Of a stretch of 64,000 nucleotides of DNA, positions 7,619 to 14,536 are shown in pieces. The stretch's first letter is position 1. Each line of letters starts with the position of its first letter. A program made the position numbers and the translations under genes. This DNA comes from Escherichia phage allfine. The notes below the pieces were generated by a model. The model did not search any database, was not told the origin of the DNA, and was given only the letters and a program-made list of their open reading frames with translations. The stretch lies in sequence record MN850633.1, one strand, 5' to 3'.

Positions 7619-7819
7619 TTATTCAGAGTCTGTAGCAGTCTCTTCTTTTTTAACTTCGAACTTTTCATCAACAGCATCAAGAAGTGCATCCATAGATGCT
7701 TCTTTAATATCAATACCTGTTGCTACAGACAATCTGTCTGCAATTGCCATGATAGTATTCTGCATAAATTCTAGCTTCTTATTAGCTTCATAAAGTTCTT
7801 TATAAACGGTCTCGCTCAT
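7619..7819 (-). CDS. hypothetical small protein (66 aa)
   Basis: ORF with GGAG Shine-Dalgarno about 10 nt upstream of ATG; directly upstream of large terminase. Confidence 0.45.
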   Translation of the reverse strand: MSETVYKELYEANKKLEFMQNTIMAIADRLSVATGIDIKEASMDALLDAVDEKFEVKKEETATDSE

Positions 7820-7854
7820 TATGTTTTCTCCAAATAGTTAACCATGTTTCCCCT

Positions 7855-7879
7855 TAAAAAAGACGGCACAGAGACCGTC
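7855..7879 (-). terminator. rho-independent terminator (minus strand)
   Basis: On minus strand GACGGUCUCUGUGCCGUC hairpin followed by UUUUUU; sits between tRNA array and head module. Confidence 0.5.
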
Positions 7880-7944
7880 AAGGAGAAACCACAATGTACG
7901 TCAGAGACATACTGTATAAGTCTTCTTATAAAGTATAACTCTGT

Positions 7945-8018
7945 AAAAAAGCCCTGTCTAAAAATACTCTTCGGTAGCGAAAGGAAGAATACTTATAGCA
8001 GGGCATTATTATTATTTT
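7945..8018. terminator. long hairpin with flanking A/T tracts, possible bidirectional terminator after tRNA array
   Basis: GCCCUG ... CAGGGC closing stem around an internally paired region, A6 tract on one side and ATTATTATTATTTT on the other. Confidence 0.4.
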
Positions 8019-8041
8019 AATTGAGAGAGAGTAAAATAACT

Positions 8042-8117
8042 TGGAGAATCCGAAGGGACTCGAACCCTTATAAACCTGTTTTGCAGACAGGCACATAGCC
8101 ATTTCTGTCACGGATTC
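8042..8117 (-). tRNA. tRNA-Cys (GCA)
   Basis: Hand fold: acceptor GAAUCCG/CGGAUUC, anticodon stem CCUGU/ACAGG with loop CUGCAAA, T-loop UUCGAGU, encoded CCA. Confidence 0.7.
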
Positions 8118-8121
8118 AAAT

Positions 8122-8214
8122 TGGAGGAAGATACCAGACTTGAACTGGTACACCGATTTCTCAGCTACTGGCAGTTTAGCAAACTGCTCCCTTACCTTTT
8201 AGGGTTAATCTTCC
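8122..8214 (-). tRNA. tRNA-Ser (GCU), type II with long variable arm
   Basis: Acceptor GGAAGAU/AUCUUCC, anticodon loop UUGCUAA, T-arm ACCAG-UUCAAGU-CUGGU, 93 nt. Confidence 0.6.
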
Positions 8215-8215
8215 A

Positions 8216-8950
8216 TTATTTCTGTAATGCGCTCTTCATTTCTGGTGTTGCAATAGTGTCAATTACACCAGTTTTACAGGCATCATCAAACCAGTCTGGT
8301 AAGATACCTGCTAAGAACCCATTGATATTCGTTTTAAGGTACTCTGCAATAAGGGCAGCTTCTTCTTCAATCATCTGCACAACTTCATCTGCATAAGCTG
8401 TAATCTTTGAGATACCTTCATTAATCTTACTGACAGCTTGGTTAGCTAAATCAGAAACAGTATCAAGACCCTTGTCAATAGCGTCTTGTAAGTCACTTAA
8501 TACATCGTTAACACTCTCTAGTGTACTGTTAATCGTATCAATAGCTTTTTGACCATATTCTGTAGCAACACCCATAATACCACTGAACGGTGTACAACCA
8601 ACTTGTTCTCCTGCTGCACCCATAACATTGGAATATCCCTTTGCTACCTGCATACGTGATGAAAACTCATCAATAGACTTTTGACCGTAGTCTGTTAGGG
8701 TCTTAGTAGTTGCTGTAGTGCTTGTAAGGCTTGTTGTAAAGCTGTTTAGAAGGACTGTTGTAAGTCCAGCAGCAACAAGTTTCTCCTGCATTGTAGGGTC
8801 TGTTACAGAACTAATAGAGCTTACAAGTGATGTAGAAGCAGCTACGGTTCCACCGAGAACTGCTGCACCAGTAATAAGTGGGTTAGAAAACCCTTTACCG
8901 GTTTTTAAGAGATTAAAAATCTCCTTACCTTGTTCTGTCATCTCTTTCAT
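8216..8950 (-). CDS. hypothetical Ser/Thr-rich protein (about 244 aa from internal Met)
   Basis: ORF 8216-9013 in track; upstream 60 nt overlaps a tRNA, so start placed at Met 22 (8950); embedded inside tRNA array. Confidence 0.45.
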   Translation of the reverse strand: MKEMTEQGKEIFNLLKTGKGFSNPLITGAAVLGGTVAASTSLVSSISSVTDPTMQEKLVAAGLTTVLLNSFTTSLTSTTATTKTLTDYGQKSIDEFSSRMQVAKGYSNVMGAAGEQVGCTPFSGIMGVATEYGQKAIDTINSTLESVNDVLSDLQDAIDKGLDTVSDLANQAVSKINEGISKITAYADEVVQMIEEEAALIAEYLKTNINGFLAGILPDWFDDACKTGVIDTIATPEMKSALQK

Positions 8951-8969
8951 TAAGCACCTTTGAAATTGG

Positions 8970-9043
8970 TAGTCCAGTGGGATTTGAACCCTCTTCTCAT
9001 GTTTTTCAGACACGCGCTTTAACCATATAAGCTACTTGGACTA
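8970..9043 (-). tRNA. tRNA-Phe (GAA), imperfect fold
   Basis: T-arm GAGGG-UUCAAAU-CCCAC, acceptor UAGUCCA/UGGACUA, anticodon stem CGUGU/ACAUG loop CUGAAAA; D-arm register ambiguous. Confidence 0.5.
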
Positions 9044-9048
9044 TAAAT

Positions 9049-9124
9049 TGGGGTGACCTACGGGATTTGAACCCGTATAGACCATGTTCACAGCATGGGT
9101 CATTACCATTTATGATAAGGCCAC
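9049..9124 (-). tRNA. tRNA-His (GUG)
   Basis: Acceptor GUGGCCU/AGGUCAC, D-stem UCAU/AUGA, anticodon stem CCAUG/CAUGG loop CUGUGAA, T-arm ACGGG-UUCAAAU-CCCGU, CCA encoded. Confidence 0.8.
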
Positions 9125-9155
9125 ATTTAAGGACTCTCGTAAGAATCCTTAGAAG

Positions 9156-9231
9156 TGGCAGCGGCATAAGGATTTGAACCTTAATAAGACAGCTTCAGAG
9201 ACTGCTGCATTGCCAGTTATGCTATACCGCT
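9156..9231 (-). tRNA. tRNA-Gln (CUG)
   Basis: Acceptor AGCGGUA/UGCCGCU, D-stem GCAU/AUGC, anticodon loop CUCUGAA, T-arm UAAGG-UUCAAAU-CCUUA. Confidence 0.7.
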
Positions 9232-9236
9232 AAATT

Positions 9237-9315
9237 TGGTACTCCATATCGGATTCGAACCGATACATAACACAGATTTTAAGTCTGGCCTCTCTGCCAA
9301 TTGGAGTAATGGAGC
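9237..9315 (-). tRNA. tRNA-Leu (UAA)?, Leu-like D-loop AAUUGGCAGAG but short variable region
   Basis: T-arm AUCGG-UUCGAAU-CCGAU, acceptor GCUCCAU/AUGGAGU, anticodon loop CUUAAAA; atypical for a type II tRNA. Confidence 0.45.
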
Positions 9316-9317
9316 AT

Positions 9318-9392
9318 TGGCGGGGGATGTTGGAATTGAACCAACTTCTTCGATTTCAAAGACCGAGGTTTTAACCTTGTAAACTAATCCCC
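9318..9392 (-). tRNA. tRNA-Gln (UUG)
   Basis: Anticodon stem UCGGU/AUCGA loop CUUUGAA, T-arm GUUGG-UUCAAUU-CCAAC; acceptor pairing imperfect. Confidence 0.55.
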
Positions 9393-9401
9393 TTTAAATC
9401 T

Positions 9402-9959
9402 TTACTTTCTCAGTGGATGAATAAAGAATGCCAACATAACTCTTTCCCTTGAGAATGCTCTTTCTTCTGGGACAACACTTTTTAGTTTCCATCCAATATA
9501 AATTCTCCAGTAAAATTGTTTACCAAAGATTTTAATTGATGGGATAAAAGCGAATAATCCCCAAGCATTCCTGTTCCACATTAGGAGATAACCAGTCTGA
9601 TTATCTTCAGGGTTAGAACTTACGTTGATATTACCTTTCCACTTAGTAACATCTTTTACATCTCTTCCTAACACATGGTAAGAGAAGTTATAAGCTTTGT
9701 TTCTCCAGAGCCATCCAACTCTTTGCATGTAGACACCTAGTTTACCAATCCATCTAATATTAGCCCATCTTTTAACGTGACCTTCATCACCATCAATTGG
9801 GTTGTCATAGGTCTCCATCCATCTGAATCCAAAAGGTAGATGTCCTTTCTTCTCACTGTAGAATGGAACTACAAAAGGTGCTAAGATAACTGCTAAGATT
9901 GCTGCAAATGGCTCTAACAAAGCTAAGAAAATCCATGAAGCATACTTCAAATATCTCAT
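9402..9959 (-). CDS. hypothetical membrane protein (185 aa)
   Basis: ORF with strongly hydrophobic N-terminus (two predicted TM helices), Trp-rich; embedded in tRNA array. Confidence 0.45.
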   Translation of the reverse strand: MRYLKYASWIFLALLEPFAAILAVILAPFVVPFYSEKKGHLPFGFRWMETYDNPIDGDEGHVKRWANIRWIGKLGVYMQRVGWLWRNKAYNFSYHVLGRDVKDVTKWKGNINVSSNPEDNQTGYLLMWNRNAWGLFAFIPSIKIFGKQFYWRIYIGWKLKSVVPEERAFSRERVMLAFFIHPLRK

Positions 9960-9978
9960 CTAAATAGCCTCTTTAAAT

Positions 9979-10054
9979 TGGCGCAGGATAAGGGATTCGA
10001 ACCCCTATTAACAGCTTCGTAGACTGTTGCTCTATCCATTTGAACTAATCCTGC
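9979..10054 (-). tRNA. tRNA-Arg (ACG)
   Basis: Acceptor GCAGGAU/AUCCUGC, D-stem GUUC/GAGC, anticodon stem ACAGU/GCUGU loop CUACGAA, T-arm AGGGG-UUCGAAU-CCCUU, CCA. Confidence 0.8.
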
Positions 10055-10059
10055 AAAAT

Positions 10060-10137
10060 TGGTGTTCCAAGACGGATTCGAACCGTCACTAGTACAAGGT
10101 TTGAGCTTGCATCCTCTGCCAATTGGGATACTGGAAC
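10060..10137 (-). tRNA. tRNA-Leu (CAA)?, Leu-like D-loop, short variable region
   Basis: Acceptor GUUCCAG/UUGGAAC, anticodon stem GCAAG/CUUGU loop CUCAAAC, T-arm GACGG-UUCGAAU-CCGUC. Confidence 0.5.
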
Positions 10138-10138
10138 A

Positions 10139-10213
10139 TGGTACTCACTAAAGGACTTGAACCTTTTTCTTCATCTTGTAAGGGTGATGTTTTACCATAT
10201 AAACTAAGCGAGT
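10139..10213 (-). tRNA. tRNA-Val (UAC)
   Basis: Acceptor ACUCGCU/AGUGAGU, D-stem GUUU/AAAC, anticodon loop CUUACAA, T-arm AAAGG-UUCAAGU-CCUUU. Confidence 0.65.
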
Positions 10214-10306
10214 ATGAAAGAGGTCTGGAGTTGTGCCGCTAACTCAACTCCGTGGAATTTGTTACGGTCTTCAGTTGACTCAAAGCGGTCTTTCACTTGA
10301 CCTCTG
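10214..10306. ncRNA. structured non-tRNA element inside tRNA array (candidate small RNA)
   Basis: Terminal 7-bp pairing AGAGGUC/GACCUCU enclosing hairpin GGAGUUG...CAACUCC; no T-arm consensus; fills gap between tRNA-Val and tRNA-Thr. Confidence 0.3.
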
Positions 10307-10309
10307 AAT

Positions 10310-10386
10310 TGGTGCTGCTCACAGGACTCGAACCTGCATTTCCATCCTTACAAGGGATGTGTAATAGCCAATTATACGAAAGCAGC
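10310..10386 (-). tRNA. tRNA-Thr (UGU)
   Basis: Acceptor GCUGCUU/GAGCAGC, anticodon stem CAUCC/GGAUG loop CUUGUAA, T-arm GCAGG-UUCGAGU-CCUGU. Confidence 0.8.
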
Positions 10387-10392
10387 ATTGTT

Positions 10393-10467
10393 TGGAGCAT
10401 CCAGAGGGAATCGAACCCTCAACCTCAGTTTGGAAGACTGTAATTTTCCCGTTTAAACTATGGATGC
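10393..10467 (-). tRNA. tRNA-Gly (UCC)
   Basis: Acceptor GCAUCCA/UGGAUGC, D-stem GUUU/AAAU, anticodon loop CUUCCAA, T-arm GAGGG-UUCGAUU-CCCUC. Confidence 0.75.
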
Positions 10468-10473
10468 ACTAAT

Positions 10474-10549
10474 TGGTGGAGAAGCAGGGAATTGAACCCT
10501 GTACTTAAGTTTGCAAAACTTATGTTTTAACCATGTAAACTACATCCCC
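10474..10549 (-). tRNA. tRNA-Ala (UGC)
   Basis: Anticodon stem UAAGU/ACUUA loop UUUGCAA; acceptor carries the G3-U70 wobble pair characteristic of tRNA-Ala; T-arm CAGGG-UUCAAUU-CCCUG. Confidence 0.8.
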
Positions 10550-10555
10550 ATTGTT

Positions 10556-10631
10556 TGGTACAGGTGGAGGGAATTGAACCCATCGTCTTACTGATTAAGA
10601 GTCAGCCGCATAACCATTTTGCTACACCTGC
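10556..10631 (-). tRNA. tRNA-Lys (CUU)
   Basis: Acceptor GCAGGUG/CACCUGU, anticodon stem GCUGA/UCAGU loop CUCUUAA; paralogous to the tRNA at 11790-11865. Confidence 0.6.
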
Positions 10632-10638
10632 ATTAATT

Positions 10639-10716
10639 TGGTAGGAGACAAGGGATTCGAACCCTCAAACATCTCGTTCTAAGCGAGATAGGTTTACCAA
10701 TTACCGTCAATCTCCC
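10639..10716 (-). tRNA. tRNA-Leu (UAG)?, atypical
   Basis: Acceptor GGGAGAU/GUCUCCU, anticodon stem UCUCG/CGAGA loop CUUAGAA, T-arm GAGGG-UUCGAAU-CCCUU; D-arm irregular. Confidence 0.5.
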
Positions 10717-10975
10717 ATTAAATCTTTTTAGAGAACTTCTAAGAACCTAAGCAACAAGGTTCCACAACAAGCTGTAATAACCTTAGAAGCCCTCTAAAAA
10801 GACCTAAAAAGGTCTTTGCATAGTCTTGTTTAATCCGGTGACTAGAACCTTTGGAGAGCTTGATATTATCTCTTCTCCGTGACACCTACTAGGTGCTTTA
10901 CTGTGCGTGTACGACAATACACTAGGGATACCAAAGCAACATCCGAATGAAGCTTGGCTTTAAATCTTATTAGGC

Positions 10976-11061
10976 GGTAAGTAAAGGAGTCGAACCCTCA
11001 CCGTATCTCTACAGTGGCAACTGTTTTCAAGACAGTTTGGCTACCATTAGCCGCTACCTAC
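10976..11061 (-). tRNA. tRNA-Ser (UGA), type II
   Basis: Anticodon stem ACUGU/ACAGU loop CUUGAAA, long variable arm, acceptor GUAGGUA/UACUUAC; boundaries approximate. Confidence 0.6.
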
Positions 11062-11075
11062 CCCTAATAAGACTT

Positions 11076-11158
11076 TGGCATGGGACGGAGGAGTTGAACC
11101 ACTTTGAAACGGTTTTGGAGGCCGTTGCTCATGCCTTAGAGTCTTAACATCGTCCCAC
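11076..11158 (-). tRNA. tRNA-like, possible tRNA-Trp (CCA), atypical 5-prime half
   Basis: Acceptor GUGGGAC/GUCCCAU with encoded CCA, anticodon-like arm ACGGC-CUCCAAA-ACCGU, about 7 extra nt in D region. Confidence 0.4.
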
Positions 11159-11301
11159 ACTATAATTCGAAGCTTACCGTATTTTCACAACACTGTAAAG
11201 CCCCTTCTCAGATTATTTACATGTTCTGGAAAACATGAGATACAGACCACCTCCTTACACGGAGACCCGATAAGGTCGTCTAAGTAATCTGCTAACTAAA
11301 T

Positions 11302-11383
11302 TGGTCGAGGCGGCAGGACTCGAACCCGCATACTCCACTTACTCGGTTAACGGCGGTTTAGAAGACCGCTGAGATACGCCCCG
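11302..11383 (-). tRNA. tRNA-like, possible tRNA-Arg (UCU), lacks canonical D-arm
   Basis: Good T-arm GCGGG-UUCGAGU-CCUGC and acceptor CGGGGCG/CGCCUCG plus CCA; anticodon arm GCGGU-CUUCUAA-ACCGC directly after acceptor; 23-nt extra segment. Confidence 0.4.
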
Positions 11384-11631
11384 TAATTATCTTTAAAGAC
11401 TCTCTTAGAAAGCCCTTAAAGATGCCCACCTTATTAATCATACCGTGGGCTAGTACGCCAAATTCTTTGATGAGGGATTGGAAGACCTCACTGGTGTTTA
11501 GCCTATCAAGCTACTGCCAGAAAAACATTGTCGTTTGCATTTATTTTAAATTTGCAAAATAGACGCTACGCAACGAAAACTAAGGTTACTATAAAGTAGT
11601 CACATCTCAATGTCAACAACTTTATTGAAAT

Positions 11632-11707
11632 TGGTACTGGTAGGTGGAATCGAACCACCGATGTTCCCTTATCAGGGGAGTGTTATAACCTTCTTAACTA
11701 TACCAGC
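11632..11707 (-). tRNA. tRNA-Ile (GAU)
   Basis: Acceptor GCUGGUA/UACCAGU, D-stem GUUA/UAAC, anticodon loop CUGAUAA, T-arm GGUGG-UUCGAUU-CCACC. Confidence 0.75.
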
Positions 11708-11708
11708 T

Positions 11709-11785
11709 TGGAGGTTCAGATGGGAATCGAACCCACATTCATAGGGCTTATGAGACCCTTGCATTACCTTATCTGCGACTGAACC
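11709..11785 (-). tRNA. tRNA-Met (CAU), elongator-type acceptor
   Basis: Acceptor GGUUCAG/CUGAACC, anticodon stem AGGGU/GCCCU loop CUCAUAA, T-arm GUGGG-UUCGAUU-CCCAU. Confidence 0.75.
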
Positions 11786-11789
11786 ATAT

Positions 11790-11865
11790 TGGTAGAAGTG
11801 GAGGGATTCGAACCCATCGCCTGTCAGATTAAAAGTCTGCCGCATAACCATTTTGCTACACTTCC
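11790..11865 (-). tRNA. tRNA-Lys (UUU)
   Basis: Acceptor GGAAGUG/CACUUCU, anticodon loop CUUUUAA, D region identical to tRNA-Lys(CUU) paralog. Confidence 0.65.
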
Positions 11866-12122
11866 ATTAAATTACCTTTGTAGATAAGCTACCCAGACTT
11901 GCTTAAGGTCTGTAGCGATGTGCCTTGTTGGGTTTAAATCTAGAATTTACCCTTTCACCCTTTGTGGTCGCATACTCACAGGTAAGCTTAATAACTTATC
12001 TACAAAGATAATTACCAGACCGTTGTTTATCATCTTAAGTGCTACCATTACACCAACTCGACATCTGCCGAGTGAAGGAATCGAACCTTCGCCTTTTCTT
12101 TACCGGAGAAATAGATTGTTTA

Positions 12123-12152
12123 AGTTTTGCTGTAAACGGTCTTCTGTAAATT
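12123..12152. repeat. repeat motif TTGCTGTAA-N2-GGTCTTCTGTAAA, copy 1 of 4 in tRNA array
   Basis: Near-identical copies at about 12205-12232, 12596-12629 and 12763-12790; CCAGACC partner forms long-range inverted repeat with GGTCTTCTG. Confidence 0.5.
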
Positions 12153-12204
12153 TGTTGAGCCAGACCAAGTTTTAAATTTTCAAAATTAAATTGGCTTGAA
12201 ATTT

Positions 12205-12232
12205 CATACATTCTTGCTGTATTTGGTCTTCT
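12205..12232. repeat. repeat motif copy 2 (TTGCTGTATTTGGTCTTCTG)
   Basis: Shares core with copies at 12123, 12596, 12763; upstream partner CCAGACCAAG at about 12163. Confidence 0.45.
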
Positions 12233-12294
12233 GCTCCTTTAAAGAATACTCGTAAGAACTCTTTAAGGGAGGGGCTAAATAGCCCTCTCAAAAT

Positions 12295-12371
12295 TGGCGG
12301 CTACGATGAGACTTGAACTCACATCATCTCCCGTGACAGGGGAGTATTTTCTCCAGTTAAACTACATAGCC
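12295..12371 (-). tRNA. tRNA-Asp (GUC)
   Basis: Acceptor GGCUAUG/CGUAGCC, anticodon stem CUCCC/GGGAG loop CUGUCAC, T-arm GUGAG-UUCAAGU-CUCAU, CCA encoded. Confidence 0.85.
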
Positions 12372-12376
12372 TTTAT

Positions 12377-12464
12377 TGGTGTGCCGTGTAGGAGTCGAAC
12401 CTACCGAGTCTCAATGACAAGGGATTTACAGTCCCCACCGCTACCATCTACGGGATAACGACAC
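12377..12464 (-). tRNA. tRNA-Tyr (GUA), type II
   Basis: Acceptor GUGUCGU/ACGGCAC, anticodon stem GGGGA/UCCCU loop CUGUAAA, long variable arm, T-arm GUAGG-UUCGACU-CCUAC. Confidence 0.75.
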
Positions 12465-12476
12465 ATTTAAATTTTG

Positions 12477-12550
12477 CGGTTAGTCAGGGATTCGAACCCT
12501 GTGCCATTCGCTTAACAGGCGACCGCACATACCTTATGTGCTTCCTAACC
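12477..12550 (-). tRNA. tRNA-Asn (GUU)
   Basis: D-stem GCAC/GUGC, anticodon loop CUGUUAA, T-arm CAGGG-UUCGAAU-CCCUG; CCA not encoded. Confidence 0.75.
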
Positions 12551-12595
12551 TTAATACATTGCCAGACCGTGTTTTTCTTTTATCCGCAAAAAGTA

Positions 12596-12629
12596 GTTTG
12601 TTGCTGAATACGGTCTTCTGTAAATTTGG
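12596..12629. repeat. repeat motif copy 3 (TTGTTGCTGAATACGGTCTTCTGTAAATTTGG) with upstream CCAGACCG partner at about 12571
   Basis: Same core as 12123 and 12763 copies. Confidence 0.5.
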
Positions 12630-12703
12630 AGGCGGGTGCAGGAGTCGAACCTGCCGATACCATGCTAATGAGACATGTGAGACGCCCTTTCTCTATACCC
12701 GCA
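12627..12703 (-). tRNA. tRNA-Met or Ile2 (CAU)
   Basis: Anticodon stem CAUGU/GCAUG loop CUCAUUA, D-stem GAGA/UCUC, T-arm GCAGG-UUCGACU-CCUGC; position 1-72 mismatch in one register. Confidence 0.6.
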
Positions 12704-12762
12704 ATTCTTAATGACCAGACCAAATATCTTCTTTGTCCGATTTCGTGTCAGATGAGTAGATT

Positions 12763-12790
12763 AAGTTTGCTGTAATTGGTCTTCTGTCAA
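12763..12790. repeat. repeat motif copy 4 (TTGCTGTAATTGGTCTTCTGTCAAAA) with upstream CCAGACCAA partner at about 12714
   Basis: Same core as other copies; on minus strand reads TTGACAGAAGACC. Confidence 0.5.
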
Positions 12791-12793
12791 AAC

Positions 12794-12871
12794 TGGCGTT
12801 CCAGAAGGGATTTGAACCCTCAAATATCCACTTTGAAAGAGTGGTGACTTTACCATTTTGTCTACTGGAAC
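12794..12871 (-). tRNA. tRNA-Glu (UUC)
   Basis: Acceptor GUUCCAG/CUGGAAC, anticodon stem CCACU/AGUGG loop CUUUCAA, T-arm GAGGG-UUCAAAU-CCCUU, CCA. Confidence 0.8.
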
Positions 12872-12878
12872 ATTAATT

Positions 12879-12955
12879 TGGTCTCTGTTGGAGGACTTGA
12901 ACCTCCGGCCTTACCGCCCCAAACGGAACGCTCTACCAAGCTGAGCTAAACAGAG
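12879..12955 (-). tRNA. tRNA-Pro (UGG)
   Basis: Acceptor CUCUGUU/AACAGAG with C1-G72 typical of bacterial tRNA-Pro, D-stem GCUC/GAGC, anticodon loop UUUGGGG, T-arm GGAGG-UUCAAGU-CCUCC. Confidence 0.8.
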
Positions 12956-13072
12956 ATAAATTTTTCAAACTCTATGTAACCACTTTAACATTATTTTTTA
13001 GTGATTGTCAAGAACTTTTTTAAAATATCTTTCAGTATCTTAGAAAAGCTCTCGTTTCGTTTCTATGTAGAA

Positions 13073-13101
13073 CATATTAAAGGGTATTAAACACATTGTC
13101 A
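13073..13101 (-). promoter_or_regulatory. sigma70-like promoter TTGACA-N17-TAATAT with hairpin in spacer, facing tRNA array
   Basis: Minus strand reads GTATTGACAatgtgtttaatacccttTAATATG; 9-bp inverted repeat AAGGGTATT/AATACCCTT overlaps spacer; about 110 nt upstream of first tRNA. Confidence 0.5.
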
Positions 13102-13120
13102 ATACCCTTTTTAAAACTTT

Positions 13121-14536
13121 TTACCAGATGTAACGGTCAATCATTACTGCTTTGAGCATTACGCTGATTGGGTCAAACTTCTCACCACCAAGCAGAGCTT
13201 TTAAAGTGGCTGGAGAGAACCCTGATACCATTGCTACACCGTTATCCTTAACAGATACTTCGCAAGTACCATTACGGTTTGCTAAGTACCAGAATACCAG
13301 TTGTGGCATCTCATATCCAGCTTTTTTGTACTTACTCTGAATTGCTTCAAAGTTTGTACGACCGTTAGCTCCATCAACCTGATTGAACTCCATATCGGAG
13401 AAGATGATAAGCTTACTTGGCATATCTTTCTGAGTCAAGTTGTTTCTTTTACCTGTTTCAAGAATGCGGTCAAAAGCTGCTTGTAAGTTAGTTGAGCCAT
13501 ATTCAACGTGTCGCATCACCTGACGATGACGGTTTCGTAAATCACCACTCAGTTCGATGAAGTGAGGGTTTGTTGAGTAAACCATTAACTCATTCTTAAA
13601 GCAACCAGTATTGCGTTCTGCTACATACAAGGCAAGTGATACACCAATATCAAGGGCAGTGATTGAACCAAGATTCACCCAAGACATTGAGCTTGAAACA
13701 TCGGTCATACACAAGATGTTCTCACCTTCTGCCATCCAGTTTGGTAGTGCTTTCCACTGCTCATTGGCAACATCTGCATTACCATGCTTGATAGACTTAA
13801 TCACATCGTATGGGTAAACAGCACCAGCGTTAATCTTAGCCTCACCCTTTGAGAGTGATTCGATGTAAGCTTTGTAACGTTCTCCATCTTTACGGTTAAA
13901 GAGCTTTTGGTAACGTGCAGCAGCGAGTGAAGGAATCTTGCTGTAGTCAATCTTACCAAACTCATTAGCAGAGATTTTTTGCTCAACTGTATCAGATAGT
14001 GCAGACAACAGTGTGCGGTACTCTTTCTCACTCAAGTTGGCAAACTTGCAGAAACGTTTTATAAACTGCTTATGACGTGGTTTGACTCGTGGTAACCACT
14101 TAGCCGCCAAACCTGCTGTTGCAGGGTCTAGTAATGCTGCTTCTAGATGTTTGAAGGCATCTGTCTCGAAACGAGTACCTACGAAGATTTTGAAGTCATC
14201 AAAACGACCAAGTTCTGCAATCTTATCCATAATGCGAAGAACCTGCGTAGGCTCTAAAACTTTGTCTTCAATCGCTTGAAGTAAAACAGTTCTGAAGGCT
14301 TTACGCTCACCCATACCTTCTCGTACATCTCGCATATGAAGCAAAATACGAACTGCAACATCAACATCCTCACGCAAAGCTTTGTAGAACAGGTCTGGTA
14401 AGATTTCTACGTTGCTACGGCTTGAACCAGCAGCTTTGTAAAAGTCTACAAGAGCAGACATTGATGAAGTATGGTTTACAGCACCATTTTCAGTTCGACC
14501 TGCATGAAGGTGCGCATGTTTAAATAATTCGCTCAT
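13121..14536 (-). CDS. vWA-domain protein, possibly TROVE/Ro60-like (471 aa)
   Basis: MIDAS-type motif MTDVSSSM followed about 100 aa later by LIIFSDMEF beta strand (vWA fold) in C-terminal third; N-terminal 270 aa helical; co-directional and immediately upstream of tRNA/tRNA-like array. Confidence 0.5.
   Translation of the reverse strand: MSELFKHAHLHAGRTENGAVNHTSSMSALVDFYKAAGSSRSNVEILPDLFYKALREDVDVAVRILLHMRDVREGMGERKAFRTVLLQAIEDKVLEPTQVLRIMDKIAELGRFDDFKIFVGTRFETDAFKHLEAALLDPATAGLAAKWLPRVKPRHKQFIKRFCKFANLSEKEYRTLLSALSDTVEQKISANEFGKIDYSKIPSLAAARYQKLFNRKDGERYKAYIESLSKGEAKINAGAVYPYDVIKSIKHGNADVANEQWKALPNWMAEGENILCMTDVSSSMSWVNLGSITALDIGVSLALYVAERNTGCFKNELMVYSTNPHFIELSGDLRNRHRQVMRHVEYGSTNLQAAFDRILETGKRNNLTQKDMPSKLIIFSDMEFNQVDGANGRTNFEAIQSKYKKAGYEMPQLVFWYLANRNGTCEVSVKDNGVAMVSGFSPATLKALLGGEKFDPISVMLKAVMIDRYIW

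What the first reader, a model, noticed from the sequence alone, without database searches (positions are those of the whole stretch)
8042..12955. About 27 tRNA genes in one strand-uniform array, with anticodons covering all 20 amino acids
Hand folding gives tRNAs for every amino acid, including Ala with the G3-U70 identity pair and Pro with C1-G72. A full complement is unusual and implies strong translational autonomy. Several members are atypical: three Leu-anticodon tRNAs keep a Leu-type D-loop but have short variable regions, and one Arg-like element lacks a D-arm.
Basis: seen in the sequence. Interest (0 to 1): 0.5.

Follow-up and report, generated by a model that had tools for sequence, protein, structure and literature searches.

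The report
Felix O1-type phage tRNA gene cluster
This is the well-known tRNA gene cluster of a Felix O1-like phage, but two of its 27 members are conserved tRNAs with non-standard shapes, and two unannotated RNAs (one resembling the coding part of tmRNA, one resembling a Y RNA) lie among the tRNA genes.

Summary
ARAGORN finds 25 tRNA genes, all on the minus strand, at 8042-12955, covering 19 amino acids.

- **Arg(UCU) tRNA without a D-arm (11302-11383).** It has 32 distinct relatives in unrelated phages. 99% of base pairs are kept and 14 of 17 pairs show compensatory changes.
- **Trp(CCA) tRNA with a 10-nt connector (11076-11158).** Its stems covary across related phage genera.

The three Leu tRNAs do have 4-7 nt variable regions.

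The window is a Felixounavirus, about 97% identical to phages AYO145A and momo, whose records already annotate most of these genes. The array itself is therefore known.

"Strong translational autonomy" is overstated. The 25 canonical tRNAs read 88.8% of the window's codons. There is no tRNA for GGU/GGC, which make up 79% of glycine codons, and charging depends on host enzymes.

Two unannotated RNAs sit inside the array.
- **tmRNA-like coding RNA (11424-11580).** It has its own promoter and a conserved 10-codon tag (ANDNVFLAVA). It has no tRNA-like domain. Its 5' arm is antisense to host tmRNA. Copies occur in many phage families, including P1.
- **YrlA-like RNA (12015-12145).** It lies downstream of a Ro60-like gene.

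The parts
12879..12955 (-). tRNA-Pro(UGG), C1-G72, CCA encoded
   Evidence: ARAGORN; Rfam 57.7 bits
12794..12871 (-). tRNA-Glu(UUC)
   Evidence: Rfam 60.6 bits
12627..12703 (-). tRNA-Met(CAU), with a U1xC72 mismatch; called by ARAGORN only
   Evidence: no Rfam hit even at E<=10; annotated tRNA-Met in phage momo
12476..12550 (-). tRNA-Asn(GUU), CCA not encoded
   Evidence: Rfam 48 bits
12377..12464 (-). tRNA-Tyr(GUA), long variable arm
   Evidence: Rfam tRNA-Sec model 29.6 bits
12295..12371 (-). tRNA-Asp(GUC)
   Evidence: Rfam 60.6 bits
12015..12145 (-). Embedded YrlA-like (Y RNA-like) candidate. A closing stem encloses a V hairpin, a T-arm, a capped acceptor-like hairpin and a D-arm.
   Evidence: RNAfold; consensus fold with compensatory changes in the capped hairpin; the V-T-AS-D topology is described in PMC4201824
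11790..11865 (-). tRNA-Lys(UUU)
   Evidence: Rfam 54.3 bits
11709..11785 (-). tRNA-Met(CAU), GGG/CCC in the anticodon stem, U73
   Evidence: Rfam 55.6 bits
11632..11707 (-). tRNA-Ile(GAU)
   Evidence: Rfam 62.3 bits
11588..11616 (-). Sigma-70-type promoter TTGACA-17-TATAGT (11 of 12 matches) in front of the tmRNA-like RNA
   Evidence: TTGACA and a -10-like box are also present in Hena2 and KMM4
11424..11580 (-). Embedded tmRNA-like coding RNA without a tRNA-like domain. It has a 5' arm GUUUUCG..., resume codon GCA at 11538-11536, tag ANDNVFLAVA (11538-11509), stops at 11508-11503, and two pseudoknots.
   Evidence: Rfam tmRNA partial hit; cross-family alignments; covariation; tag-frame selection
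11302..11383 (-). Arg(UCU) tRNA lacking a D-arm: acceptor stem, UAUCUCA, anticodon arm (loop CUUCUAA), C plus a 22-nt conserved segment, T-arm, A73, CCA
   Evidence: Rfam 31.7 bits; family covariation; a canonical allele occupies the same slot in SUT_S820 and KMM4
11076..11158 (-). Trp(CCA) tRNA-like with the 10-nt connector GAUGUUAAGA, a 3-bp D stem, G73 and CCA
10973..11062 (-). tRNA-Ser(UGA), long variable arm, CCA not encoded
   Evidence: Rfam 33.2 bits
10639..10716 (-). tRNA-Leu(UAG), 4-nt variable region, A73
   Evidence: Rfam 44.5 bits
10556..10631 (-). tRNA-Lys(CUU)
   Evidence: Rfam 56.9 bits
10474..10549 (-). tRNA-Ala(UGC), G3.U70
   Evidence: Rfam 62.7 bits
10393..10467 (-). tRNA-Gly(UCC)
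   Evidence: Rfam 59.6 bits
10310..10386 (-). tRNA-Thr(UGU)
   Evidence: Rfam 54.7 bits
10139..10213 (-). tRNA-Val(UAC)
   Evidence: Rfam 60 bits
10060..10137 (-). tRNA-Leu(CAA), 5-nt variable region, A73, D loop CAAUUGGCAGA
   Evidence: Rfam 43.6 bits
9979..10054 (-). tRNA-Arg(ACG)
   Evidence: Rfam 59.8 bits
9402..9959 (-). Protein gene inside the array (185 aa, DUF7338, function unknown)
9318..9393 (-). tRNA-Gln(UUG)
   Evidence: Rfam 56.6 bits
9237..9315 (-). tRNA-Leu(UAA), 7-nt variable region, A73
   Evidence: Rfam 47.5 bits
9156..9231 (-). tRNA-Gln(CUG)
   Evidence: Rfam 58.7 bits
9049..9124 (-). tRNA-His(GUG)
   Evidence: Rfam 53.3 bits
8967..9042 (-). tRNA-Phe(GAA)
   Evidence: Rfam 45 bits
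8216..8950 (-). Protein gene inside the array (244 aa, DUF7217, annotated as a putative membrane protein)
8122..8214 (-). tRNA-Ser(GCU), long variable arm
   Evidence: Rfam 46.2 bits
8042..8117 (-). tRNA-Cys(GCA)
   Evidence: Rfam 56.4 bits
12982..13102 (-). Two promoter-like sites (TTGACA-17-TAATAT and TTGACA-18-TAAAGT) between the Ro60-like gene and tRNA-Pro
   Evidence: consensus matches only, and the total number in the region is no higher than in shuffles
7862..7879 (-). Intrinsic-terminator-like hairpin followed by a T run, downstream of tRNA-Cys
13121..14536 (-). Flanking gene directly upstream of the array (471 aa; DUF2828 + DUF7788; PHROG 850 'RNA-binding protein'). It occupies the position of Bas63 gp130, which is reported to be Ro60-like.
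   Evidence: PMC11482910; no sequence match in the PDB

Best explanation
The region is the tRNA gene cluster of a Felix O1-like myovirus (genus Felixounavirus). It holds 25 ordinary tRNA genes and two structurally aberrant but conserved tRNA genes, Arg-UCU without a D-arm and Trp-CCA with an extended connector. All point the same way. They are interrupted by two small protein genes and two other RNA genes.

Shown here: the genes, their folds, their conservation and their synteny.

Inferred from general knowledge of tRNA biology and from the cited papers:
- The cluster is transcribed leftward from promoters just downstream of the Ro60-like gene and from internal promoters, up to a terminator near 7870.
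- Host RNase P and 3' nucleases cut out the tRNAs. Twenty-two of the 25 canonical genes, and both odd ones, already encode CCA.
- Host synthetases charge them.
- They feed translation of phage mRNAs, whose codon usage they fit. For example, AGA is 32% of phage Arg codons.
- They may also serve as spare or nuclease-resistant copies when host tRNAs are depleted or cut by defence nucleases.

The D-armless Arg-UCU is most likely a working decoder of AGA/AGG. It replaces a canonical tRNA-Arg(UCU) at exactly the same slot in sister phages.
For: - **Identity.** 314 phage records match the region, 236 of them over at least 80% of it, at 80-99% identity. The best matches are Felixounavirus. Gene order is the same as in momo and AYO145A.
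- **tRNA calls.** ARAGORN gives 25. Rfam gives 24 at or above the gathering score.
- **D-armless Arg-UCU.** There are 32 distinct 79-nt relatives, counting the window and the phage-record copies. Most come from 49 IMG/VR loci, on contigs of 11-360 kb. Of 510 cells, 99.2% are paired, and 14 of 17 pairs show compensatory change. The covariation score is 0.861, against 0.215 for shuffles and at most 0.19 for slid controls. The anticodon loop CUUCUAA is invariant. SUT_S820 (same genus) and KMM4 (Mooglevirus) carry a canonical Arg-UCU between near-identical flanks.
- **Trp-like.** RNAalifold gives a cloverleaf, and 7 of 20 pairs are compensatory in only 4 sequences.
- **Codon fit.** The 25 canonical tRNAs cover 88.8% of codons. 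AGA plus AGG make up 40% of Arg codons.
- **Leu tRNAs.** They keep A73 and G18G19 in the D loop. These are the elements E. coli LeuRS needs, whereas the long variable arm is dispensable (PMC9976931).
- **Function proposed in the literature.** Codon compensation and escape from tRNA-targeting defences (PMC10264068; PMC11482910).
Against: - No expression, processing or charging data exist for this phage. All function here is inferred.
- E. coli ArgRS relies mainly on A20 in the D loop (PMC9976931). The D-armless RNA has no D loop, so charging with arginine is uncertain.
- In the window's Trp-like copy the T stem has a U-U mismatch and the T loop is UUCAACU. The copy may be decaying.
- tRNAscan-SE labelled four members (Cys, His, Leu-UAG, Tyr) as pseudogenes in the AYO145A record.
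- Bas63 tRNA genes were mostly dispensable on laboratory hosts.
- The number of promoter-like sites in the region is no higher than in shuffled sequence.
Confidence: 0.85

Rival explanations
1. The two aberrant elements, and perhaps some low-scoring members, are not decoders. They are tRNA mimics: decoys that soak up host anticodon nucleases or tRNA-modifying enzymes, or partners of the phage Ro60-like protein, in the way Y RNAs carry tRNA-like modules.
For: - The D-armless RNA lacks the D loop that holds the main ArgRS determinant, A20, yet keeps an invariant anticodon loop. That is what a decoy for an anticodon nuclease would need.
- A Ro60-like gene sits directly upstream of the array. The authors of PMC11482910 guessed that some Bas63 'tRNA genes' are Y RNAs.
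- A clear YrlA-like module does exist in the array.
Against: - The D-armless RNA has a free 7-bp acceptor stem and a purine discriminator in 29 of 32 copies. CCA is encoded in 20 of 32. Those are features of a chargeable tRNA.
- It replaces a canonical Arg-UCU gene at the same slot.
- AGA is a major phage codon.
- It occurs in many phages, including T5-like, Vequintavirinae, Stephanstirmvirinae and jumbo phages. I did not check whether those phages have a Ro60-like gene.
Confidence: 0.2
2. The cluster is mostly evolutionary baggage. It would be a recombination-prone cargo region in which tRNA genes are gained, lost and decay, with little present function.
For: - Bas63 tRNAs were mostly non-essential.
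- HNH endonuclease genes are inserted at this locus in many relatives.
- Four members were labelled pseudogenes by tRNAscan-SE in AYO145A.
- The Arg-UCU slot has undergone cassette exchange.
Against: - The order and sequences are kept at 95-99% identity in 162 records. The same anticodon repertoire is kept in the distant Erwinia phage Hena2.
- Stems covary rather than decay.
- The intergenic RNAs are more conserved than neutral DNA would be.
Confidence: 0.1

Closest known systems
tRNA clusters of Felix O1 and other Felixounavirus genomes (AYO145A KR014248, momo MN850580, garuso MN850566)
   Same: About 97-100% nucleotide identity. Same gene order, flanking genes and strand.
   Different: Nothing essential differs. 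Public records annotate 20-25 of the genes. In the records I inspected that carry these forms, the D-armless Arg-UCU, the Trp-like gene, the tmRNA-like RNA and the YrlA-like RNA are all unannotated.
Large tRNA sets of other virulent phages, such as T5, for which escape from tRNA-targeting defences was proposed (PMC10264068)
   Same: Many co-oriented tRNA genes in a lytic phage of enterobacteria. The proposed roles are the same: codon compensation and defence escape.
   Different: In T5 the escape was attributed to anticodon-loop mutations. Here the striking changes are in the tRNA body (no D-arm, short variable arms, long connector). The Arg-UCU anticodon loop is unchanged.
D-armless mitochondrial tRNA-Ser(AGY) of animals
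   Same: A decoder that lacks the D-arm but keeps the acceptor, anticodon and T arms.
   Different: The phage RNA is not shortened. It carries an invariant 22-nt segment between the anticodon arm and the T arm (xUUAAYCGAGUAAxxGGAGUAU) and an invariant UAUCUCA after the acceptor stem. Together these could form a strand-swapped D-stem and D-loop mimic; this is my inference and is untested. The host is a bacterium, whose tRNAs are all described as canonical cloverleaves (PMC11551756 abstract).
Class II tRNA-Leu of bacteria
   Same: A73 in all three; G18G19 in the D loop of all three; a 3-bp D stem and an AAUUGGYAGA-type D loop in Leu-CAA and Leu-UAA; Leu anticodons.
   Different: The variable region is 4-7 nt instead of a long arm. 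[quoted passage not shown] The Erwinia phage Hena2 Leu tRNAs are also 77-78 nt.
tmRNA (SsrA), including the two-piece forms made from permuted genes
   Same: The embedded RNA has an A-rich leader, resume codon GCA, a 10-codon tag of the form ANDxxxLxAA or ...LAVA plus a stop, a helix that includes the tag's 3' end, and two downstream pseudoknots.
   Different: No tRNA-like domain is constantly attached. It scores below the Rfam thresholds (15-25 bits against 47). Its 5' arm is antisense to host ssrA nt ~73-106.
YrlA-type bacterial Y RNAs bound by Ro60 (PMC4201824)
   Same: The order of V hairpin, T-arm, capped acceptor-like stem and D-arm, all closed by a stem. A Ro60-like gene lies on the same strand nearby.
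   Different: There is no Rfam YrlA hit. The GNCGAAN0-1G Ro-binding motif is not found in the closing stem. Ro60 likeness of the protein rests on a preprint about a relative, and there is no sequence match to solved Ro60 structures.

Membership tests
Bacterial-type tRNA genes (Rfam RF00005 / ARAGORN cloverleaf) | Four-arm cloverleaf scoring above the finder's threshold | tested here: met
   25 of 27 by ARAGORN. 23 of those 25 also reach the Rfam gathering score. The D-armless Arg-UCU passes Rfam (31.7 vs 29 bits) without a D-arm. The Trp-like fails both default finders.
Bacterial-type tRNA genes (Rfam RF00005 / ARAGORN cloverleaf) | Base-paired stems kept by compensatory changes in relatives (tested for the two aberrant members) | tested here: met
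   Arg-UCU: 14 of 17 pairs compensatory, 99.2% of cells paired. Trp-like: 7 of 20 pairs compensatory.
Bacterial-type tRNA genes (Rfam RF00005 / ARAGORN cloverleaf) | Expression, 5'/3' maturation and aminoacylation | not testable with these tools
   Needs tRNA sequencing, Northern blots or acid gels.
Felixounavirus tRNA cluster | High nucleotide identity and the same gene order between the terminase-side genes and the DUF2828 (Ro60-like) gene | tested here: met
Class II (long-arm) tRNA-Leu | Long variable arm with its own stem | tested here: not met
   Variable regions of 4, 5 and 7 nt.
Class II (long-arm) tRNA-Leu | A73 discriminator and G18G19 in the D loop, as required by E. coli LeuRS | tested here: met
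   the requirements are taken from PMC9976931.
tRNA-Arg as recognised by E. coli ArgRS | A20 in the D loop, C35, U/G36, A/G73 | tested here: inconclusive
   C35, U36 and A73 are present (G or A at 73 in 29 of 32 relatives). There is no D loop, so no canonical A20. The conserved UAAxUGGA segment might supply an equivalent.
tRNA-Ala / tmRNA acceptor identity (considered for the D-armless element) | Invariant G3.U70 | tested here: not met
   The 3:70 pair is G-C in 13, G-U in 6, A-U in 5, C-G in 3 and U-A in 3.
tmRNA (for the embedded RNA at 11424-11580) | tRNA-like domain: acceptor stem with G3.U70, T-arm and a CCA end | tested here: not met
   ARAGORN finds no tmRNA in the window or in four of the five non-Ounavirinae loci. 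Its single call, in L003, borrows the 3' end of an ordinary tRNA-Met and gives an implausible tag. T-arm motifs near 115 copies have no constant position, and many copies have none.
tmRNA (for the embedded RNA at 11424-11580) | mRNA-like domain: resume codon after an A-rich leader, and a short tag ORF ending in hydrophobic-Ala-Ala plus a stop, under selection on the peptide | tested here: met
   Tags are always 10 codons followed by a stop. Single-base codon differences are 555 synonymous to 478 non-synonymous in the tag frame, against 22/873 and 131/691 in the other frames.
tmRNA (for the embedded RNA at 11424-11580) | Score at or above the Rfam gathering threshold | tested here: not met
   15.4 bits (tmRNA), 25.2 bits (tmRNA_permuted) and 21.8 bits (beta_tmRNA), against thresholds of 47-84.
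YrlA-type Y RNA (for 12015-12145) | tRNA-like module in the order V, T-arm, capped acceptor stem, D-arm, closed by a stem | tested here: met
   The capped stem occurs in three fully compensatory versions.
YrlA-type Y RNA (for 12015-12145) | Ro60-binding motif GNCGAAN0-1G on the 5' strand of the closing helix; match to the Rfam YrlA model | tested here: not met
   The only motif match lies at the V/T junction. There is no Rfam YrlA hit at this place.
YrlA-type Y RNA (for 12015-12145) | Encoded next to a Ro60 (TROVE) ortholog and bound by it | tested here: inconclusive
   The gene 13121-14536 is on the same strand, about 1 kb upstream. It matches Pfam DUF2828/DUF7788 and PHROG 'RNA-binding protein'. 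Structural likeness to Ro60 is reported for Bas63 gp130. Sequence searches found no PDB match. Binding cannot be tested here.

The most novel reading that the evidence does not exclude
The unannotated RNA at 11424-11580 is a phage 'coding piece' for trans-translation that has no tRNA-like domain of its own. Its 5' arm would pair with host tmRNA across the host's resume codon (ssrA nt ~73-106). That would mask the host tag template and present the phage's own resume codon and tag (ANDNVFLAVA here; ANDDVVLMAA, ANEEMYLAVA and ANDDLMMVAA in other phages, including P1). Rescued ribosomes in infected cells would then add a phage-specified tag.

A second non-excluded reading concerns the finding itself. 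The D-armless Arg-UCU and the long-connector Trp would be fully functional non-cloverleaf decoders working on bacterial ribosomes.
Probability: 0.2. Interest if true: 0.9.

Novelty: new variant of a known kind. Interest (0 to 1): 0.5.

Why it matters
The array as such adds nothing new. It is the annotated tRNA cluster of a common, much-sequenced phage genus.

What could matter lies inside it.

1. **A non-cloverleaf tRNA family.** The D-armless tRNA-Arg(UCU) family is widespread in phages of bacteria and has strong covariation support. It would be an exception to the statement that all bacterial tRNAs are cloverleaves. It is a ready test case for how ArgRS, EF-Tu and the ribosome tolerate a rebuilt tRNA core. 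It may also be a route by which phages escape tRNA-directed defences.

2. **Short-arm Leu tRNAs.** They are an exception to a textbook rule.

3. **Two unannotated RNA genes.** The tmRNA-like RNA and the YrlA-like RNA are missed by standard annotation in the public records I inspected, including P1. Matching sequence occurs in several hundred phage records.

4. **Links to open questions.** They bear on how phages deal with host ribosome rescue, and on what the phage Ro60-like anti-defence protein binds.

Tried and rejected
- **The D-armless element as an Ala-accepting tRNA-like domain for the neighbouring tag RNA.** I suspected this because the window copy has G3.U70, A73 and CCA. Rejected: the 3:70 pair varies freely in 30 relatives. 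The two RNAs occur separately in other phages. A canonical Arg-UCU sits at the same slot in sister phages.
- **The half-tRNA at 12073-12123 plus the following 5' half as a permuted or split tRNA gene.** Replaced by the YrlA-like reading once the closed four-way fold and its covariation were seen.
- **A constant tRNA-like partner next to the tmRNA-like RNA.** ARAGORN and Rfam on five loci and T-arm motif scans on 115 copies found only sporadic T-arm modules at varying positions.
- **Cis pairing of the 5' arm with its own tag region.** It is weaker and inconsistent (-12 to -26 kcal/mol at scattered sites) compared with pairing to host ssrA. RNAalifold finds no conserved structure in the first ~80 columns.
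- **The Rfam YrlA model.** Its only hit in the array is a 17-bit match over Phe/His.
- **Sequence searches of the Ro60-like protein** against PDB and NCBIfam. Nothing found.
- **Literature.** I found nothing on a tmRNA-like RNA in these phages or on D-armless phage tRNAs. The P1 genome paper could not be opened.
- **Not used.** Structure prediction, fold search and the large protein-homology searches. They would not have changed the verdict on the tRNA array.

Full report
**1. What is there**

ARAGORN finds 25 tRNA genes in the whole 64-kb window. All lie between 8042 and 12955 and all are on the minus strand. Rfam's tRNA model confirms 23 of them at or above its gathering score. Tyr matches only the related tRNA-Sec model, and one Met(CAU) gene (12627-12703) is called by ARAGORN alone. 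The canonical anticodons cover 19 amino acids, with Trp missing.

- Ala has G3.U70.
- Pro has C1-G72.
- The three Leu tRNAs (UAG, CAA, UAA) have variable regions of only 4, 5 and 7 nt, and all have A73.
- Leu-CAA and Leu-UAA have a 3-bp D stem and the D loop CAAUUGGCAGA. Leu-UAG has the D loop UAAUUGGUA.
- Twenty-two of the 25 genes encode CCA.

**2. The two elements that make 25 into 27**

*The Arg-like element.* Rfam also calls 11305-11383 (31.7 bits). Its alignment shows an acceptor stem, no D-arm, an anticodon arm with loop CUUCUAA (anticodon UCU), a long segment in the variable-region position (22 nt by my parse) and a T-arm. With A73 and CCA it spans 11302-11383.
- Similar sequences occur, mostly unannotated, in a jumbo Klebsiella phage, Stephanstirmvirinae, a T5-like Sugarlandvirus and Vequintavirinae.
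- A pattern scan of IMG/VR gave 49 loci. Together with the window and the phage-record copies they give 32 distinct sequences.
- On an ungapped alignment of 30 sequences, 99.2% of 510 cells are paired and 14 of 17 pairs show compensatory changes. The covariation score is 0.861, against 0.215 in shuffles (0 of 500 reach it) and at most 0.19 when the partners are slid.
- Invariant parts are G7-C66, UAUCUCA, the anticodon loop, the 22-nt segment xUUAAYCGAGUAAxxGGAGUAU and the T loop.
- I suspect that C11-U12-C13 pairs with the first GAG of that segment, and that UAAxUGGA mimics the D loop (a strand-swapped D element). Both parts are invariant, so covariation cannot test this.
- Felixounavirus SUT_S820 and Mooglevirus KMM4 carry an ordinary tRNA-Arg(UCU) between near-identical flanks. 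The D-armless gene is therefore an allele of a real decoder.

*The Trp-like element.* The element at 11076-11158 has a 7-bp acceptor stem (G1.U72), G73 and an encoded CCA. It has an invariant 10-nt connector, GAUGUUAAGA, where U8-A9 normally sit. It also has a 3-bp D stem, an anticodon loop CUCCAAA and a weak T-arm.
- In Mooglevirus phages and Yersinia phage P778 the D stem (CUC/GAG versus CAC/GUG) changes in a compensatory way.
- The anticodon stem does the same (AACGG/CCGUU, GUAAG/CUUAC, GUAGG/CCUAC).
- RNAalifold predicts the cloverleaf on its own, and 7 of 20 pairs are compensatory in four sequences.

**3. What genome this is**

The region matches 314 phage records. The best matches, at 96-97% identity (100% for garuso over a sub-region), are Felixounavirus genomes. 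In momo and AYO145A the same order of tRNA genes is annotated, between terminase-side genes and a "vWFA / RNA-binding" gene. Genome papers report up to 26 tRNAs for such phages. The array is therefore already known. The records I inspected do not annotate the D-armless Arg, the Trp-like gene or the two RNAs described in section 5.

**4. How it probably works, and how far "autonomy" goes**

I took 63 non-overlapping ORFs from the window (15,498 codons). Under standard wobble rules the 25 canonical tRNAs read 88.8% of the codons, and the two odd ones add 2.9%. The rest is mainly GGU (4.05%) and GGC (0.8%), for which there is no phage tRNA. AGA is 32% and AGG 8% of Arg codons. From my own knowledge these are rare codons in E. 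coli, so a phage Arg-UCU decoder makes sense.

No synthetase gene turned up in the four ORFs I scanned in and beside the array. In the relative Bas63 the tRNA genes were mostly dispensable on four laboratory strains. The current view in the literature is codon compensation plus escape from tRNA-targeting defences (PMC10264068).

[quoted passage not shown] It also states that E. coli LeuRS needs A73 and the D/T-loop contacts, not the long arm. The phage Leu tRNAs are thus unusual but plausibly chargeable.

For Arg the same review names A20 in the D loop as the main ArgRS determinant. Charging of the D-armless RNA is therefore an open question.

Transcription signals are weak evidence. The best promoter match in the region (11 of 12) is at 11616-11588. 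Two further matches lie upstream of tRNA-Pro, and a terminator-like hairpin lies at 7879-7862. The number of promoter-like sites overall is no higher than in shuffled sequence.

**5. Two unannotated RNAs inside the array**

*(a) tmRNA-like coding RNA, 11580 to 11424.*
- Rfam gives a partial tmRNA match (15 bits, below threshold) over AAAAUAAAU-GCA-AAC-GAC....
- The stretch is conserved at 72-82% identity, unannotated, in several unrelated phage groups. These are a T1-like phage, Kuttervirus (Ackermannviridae), the Schitoviridae phage Pollock, a Q-encoding (lambdoid-looking) Enterobacter phage and the Erwinia Kolesnikvirus Hena2.
- Of 5,426 complete E. coli genomes, 137 carry a near-full copy, and about 590 matches lie on plasmids. 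The one plasmid inspected is P1-like and holds a full but diverged copy.
- In P1 itself the element lies between the annotated "dicF-like region" and trnA, and it is unannotated.
- Every copy has a 10-codon frame starting at GCA and ending in a stop. Examples are ANDNVFLAVA here, ANDDVVLMAA, ANEEMYLAVA, ANDEQFLAVA, and ANDDLMMVAA in P1.
- Single-base codon differences are 555 synonymous to 478 non-synonymous in that frame. In the other two frames the counts are 22/873 and 131/691.
- Downstream, a helix joining tag codons 7-8 to a segment after the stop covaries. So do a hairpin whose loop pairs further downstream and a second pseudoknot.
- No tRNA-like domain is constantly attached.
- The conserved 5' arm is antisense to E. 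coli K-12 ssrA nt ~73-106. In the common type, AGUUUUCGU, GCGACU and UUGCGG pair with ACGAAAACU, AGUCGC and CCGCAA, giving -33 kcal/mol against about -23 for shuffled ssrA. The window type pairs in a different register, at -26 kcal/mol. In 13 of 16 copies the best site ends at ssrA nt 105-106. The copies are related to one another, so this is suggestive and not proof.
- My hypothesis is that the RNA docks on host tmRNA and blocks or replaces its tag template.

*(b) YrlA-like RNA, 12145 to 12015.*
- The minimum-free-energy fold and the consensus fold both give a closing stem around a V hairpin, a T-arm (GAAGG-UUCGAUU-CCUUC), a capped acceptor-like hairpin and a D-arm.
- The capped hairpin exists in three fully compensatory versions across Felixounavirus, Suspvirus and Mooglevirus.
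- This is the topology described for YrlA Y RNAs.
- About 1 kb upstream on the same strand is a 471-aa DUF2828/DUF7788 protein gene.
- A preprint describes the protein at the same position in Bas63, gp130, as Ro60-like and as a counter to the ppl defence. Its authors guessed that some "tRNA genes" might be Y RNAs.
- The Rfam YrlA model does not hit this element, and the Ro-binding motif is not in the closing stem. I therefore do not file it as a YrlA member.

**6. Verdict**

The array itself is ordinary and already known.

All functional statements are inferences. The experiments that would settle them are listed under next steps.

Noticed in passing
window 11424-11580 (-), promoter 11588-11616: An unannotated tmRNA-like coding RNA with the tag ANDNVFLAVA, two pseudoknots and no tRNA-like domain. 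It is conserved in many unrelated enterobacterial phages and prophages, including P1. Its 5' arm is antisense to host ssrA nt ~73-106.
   Followed up: partly
window 12015-12145 (-): A YrlA-like four-way RNA (V hairpin, T-arm, capped acceptor-like hairpin, D-arm) with compensatory changes. It is restricted to Felixounavirus, Suspvirus and Mooglevirus, and it is unannotated.
   Followed up: partly
window 13121-14536 (-): A DUF2828/DUF7788 'RNA-binding protein' gene directly upstream of the array. A preprint reports the protein at the same position in Bas63 (gp130) as Ro60-like and as a counter to the ppl defence. It has no sequence match to solved structures.
   Followed up: partly
window 12150-12294 (-): The intergenic stretch upstream of the YrlA-like RNA is almost invariant across three genera (alignment A3). 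It contains hairpins such as GAGAGGGC...GCCCCUC. It may be a second non-coding RNA.
   Followed up: no
window ~12228-12262 and ~11385-11418 (-); L008 ~1678-1700: A repeated hairpin motif, CUUUAAAG..UUCUUACGAG / UUCUAAGAGAG..CUUUAAAG, occurs twice in the array and again in Erwinia phage Hena2. It may be a processing or regulatory signal.
   Followed up: no
window 11230-11257 (-): A near-perfect Shine-Dalgarno-like block, TAAGGAGGTGGTCTGTATCTC, is invariant in the window, Mooglevirus KMM4 and Erwinia phage Hena2. In the window it is followed by only a 7-codon ORF (MFSRTCK), and that ORF is not conserved.
   Followed up: no
L008 (Erwinia phage Hena2) 1295-1462: An unannotated ~168-nt tRNA-like RNA lies between tRNA-Arg(UCU) and the tmRNA-like RNA. 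It has the acceptor stem GGGUGAUU/AAUCACUC, a T-arm, GCCA and a ~100-nt insert. Its 5' end resembles the tmRNA 5' end (GAUUCUG).
   Followed up: no
L041, L029, L026, L064, L025, L056 (prophage-type copies), flanks of the tmRNA-like RNA: Repeated long hairpin modules, GGUAAGRGCAUU...AGUGCUCUUUCC, flank the tmRNA-like RNA. Some enclose a T-arm. In Q-encoding (lambdoid-type) prophages the whole set starts right after a terminator-like hairpin that follows the Q gene. Together they suggest a large structured leader RNA.
   Followed up: no
window 10717-10972 (-): The 256-nt gap between tRNA-Leu(UAG) and tRNA-Ser(UGA) holds a long hairpin (weak Rfam microRNA-precursor-like hits at 10712-10811). AYO145A annotates only a 48-aa ORF there.
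   Followed up: no
relatives of window 7800-13200: Many sister phages carry HNH homing-endonuclease genes inserted at various points of the tRNA cluster. This window has none.
   Followed up: no
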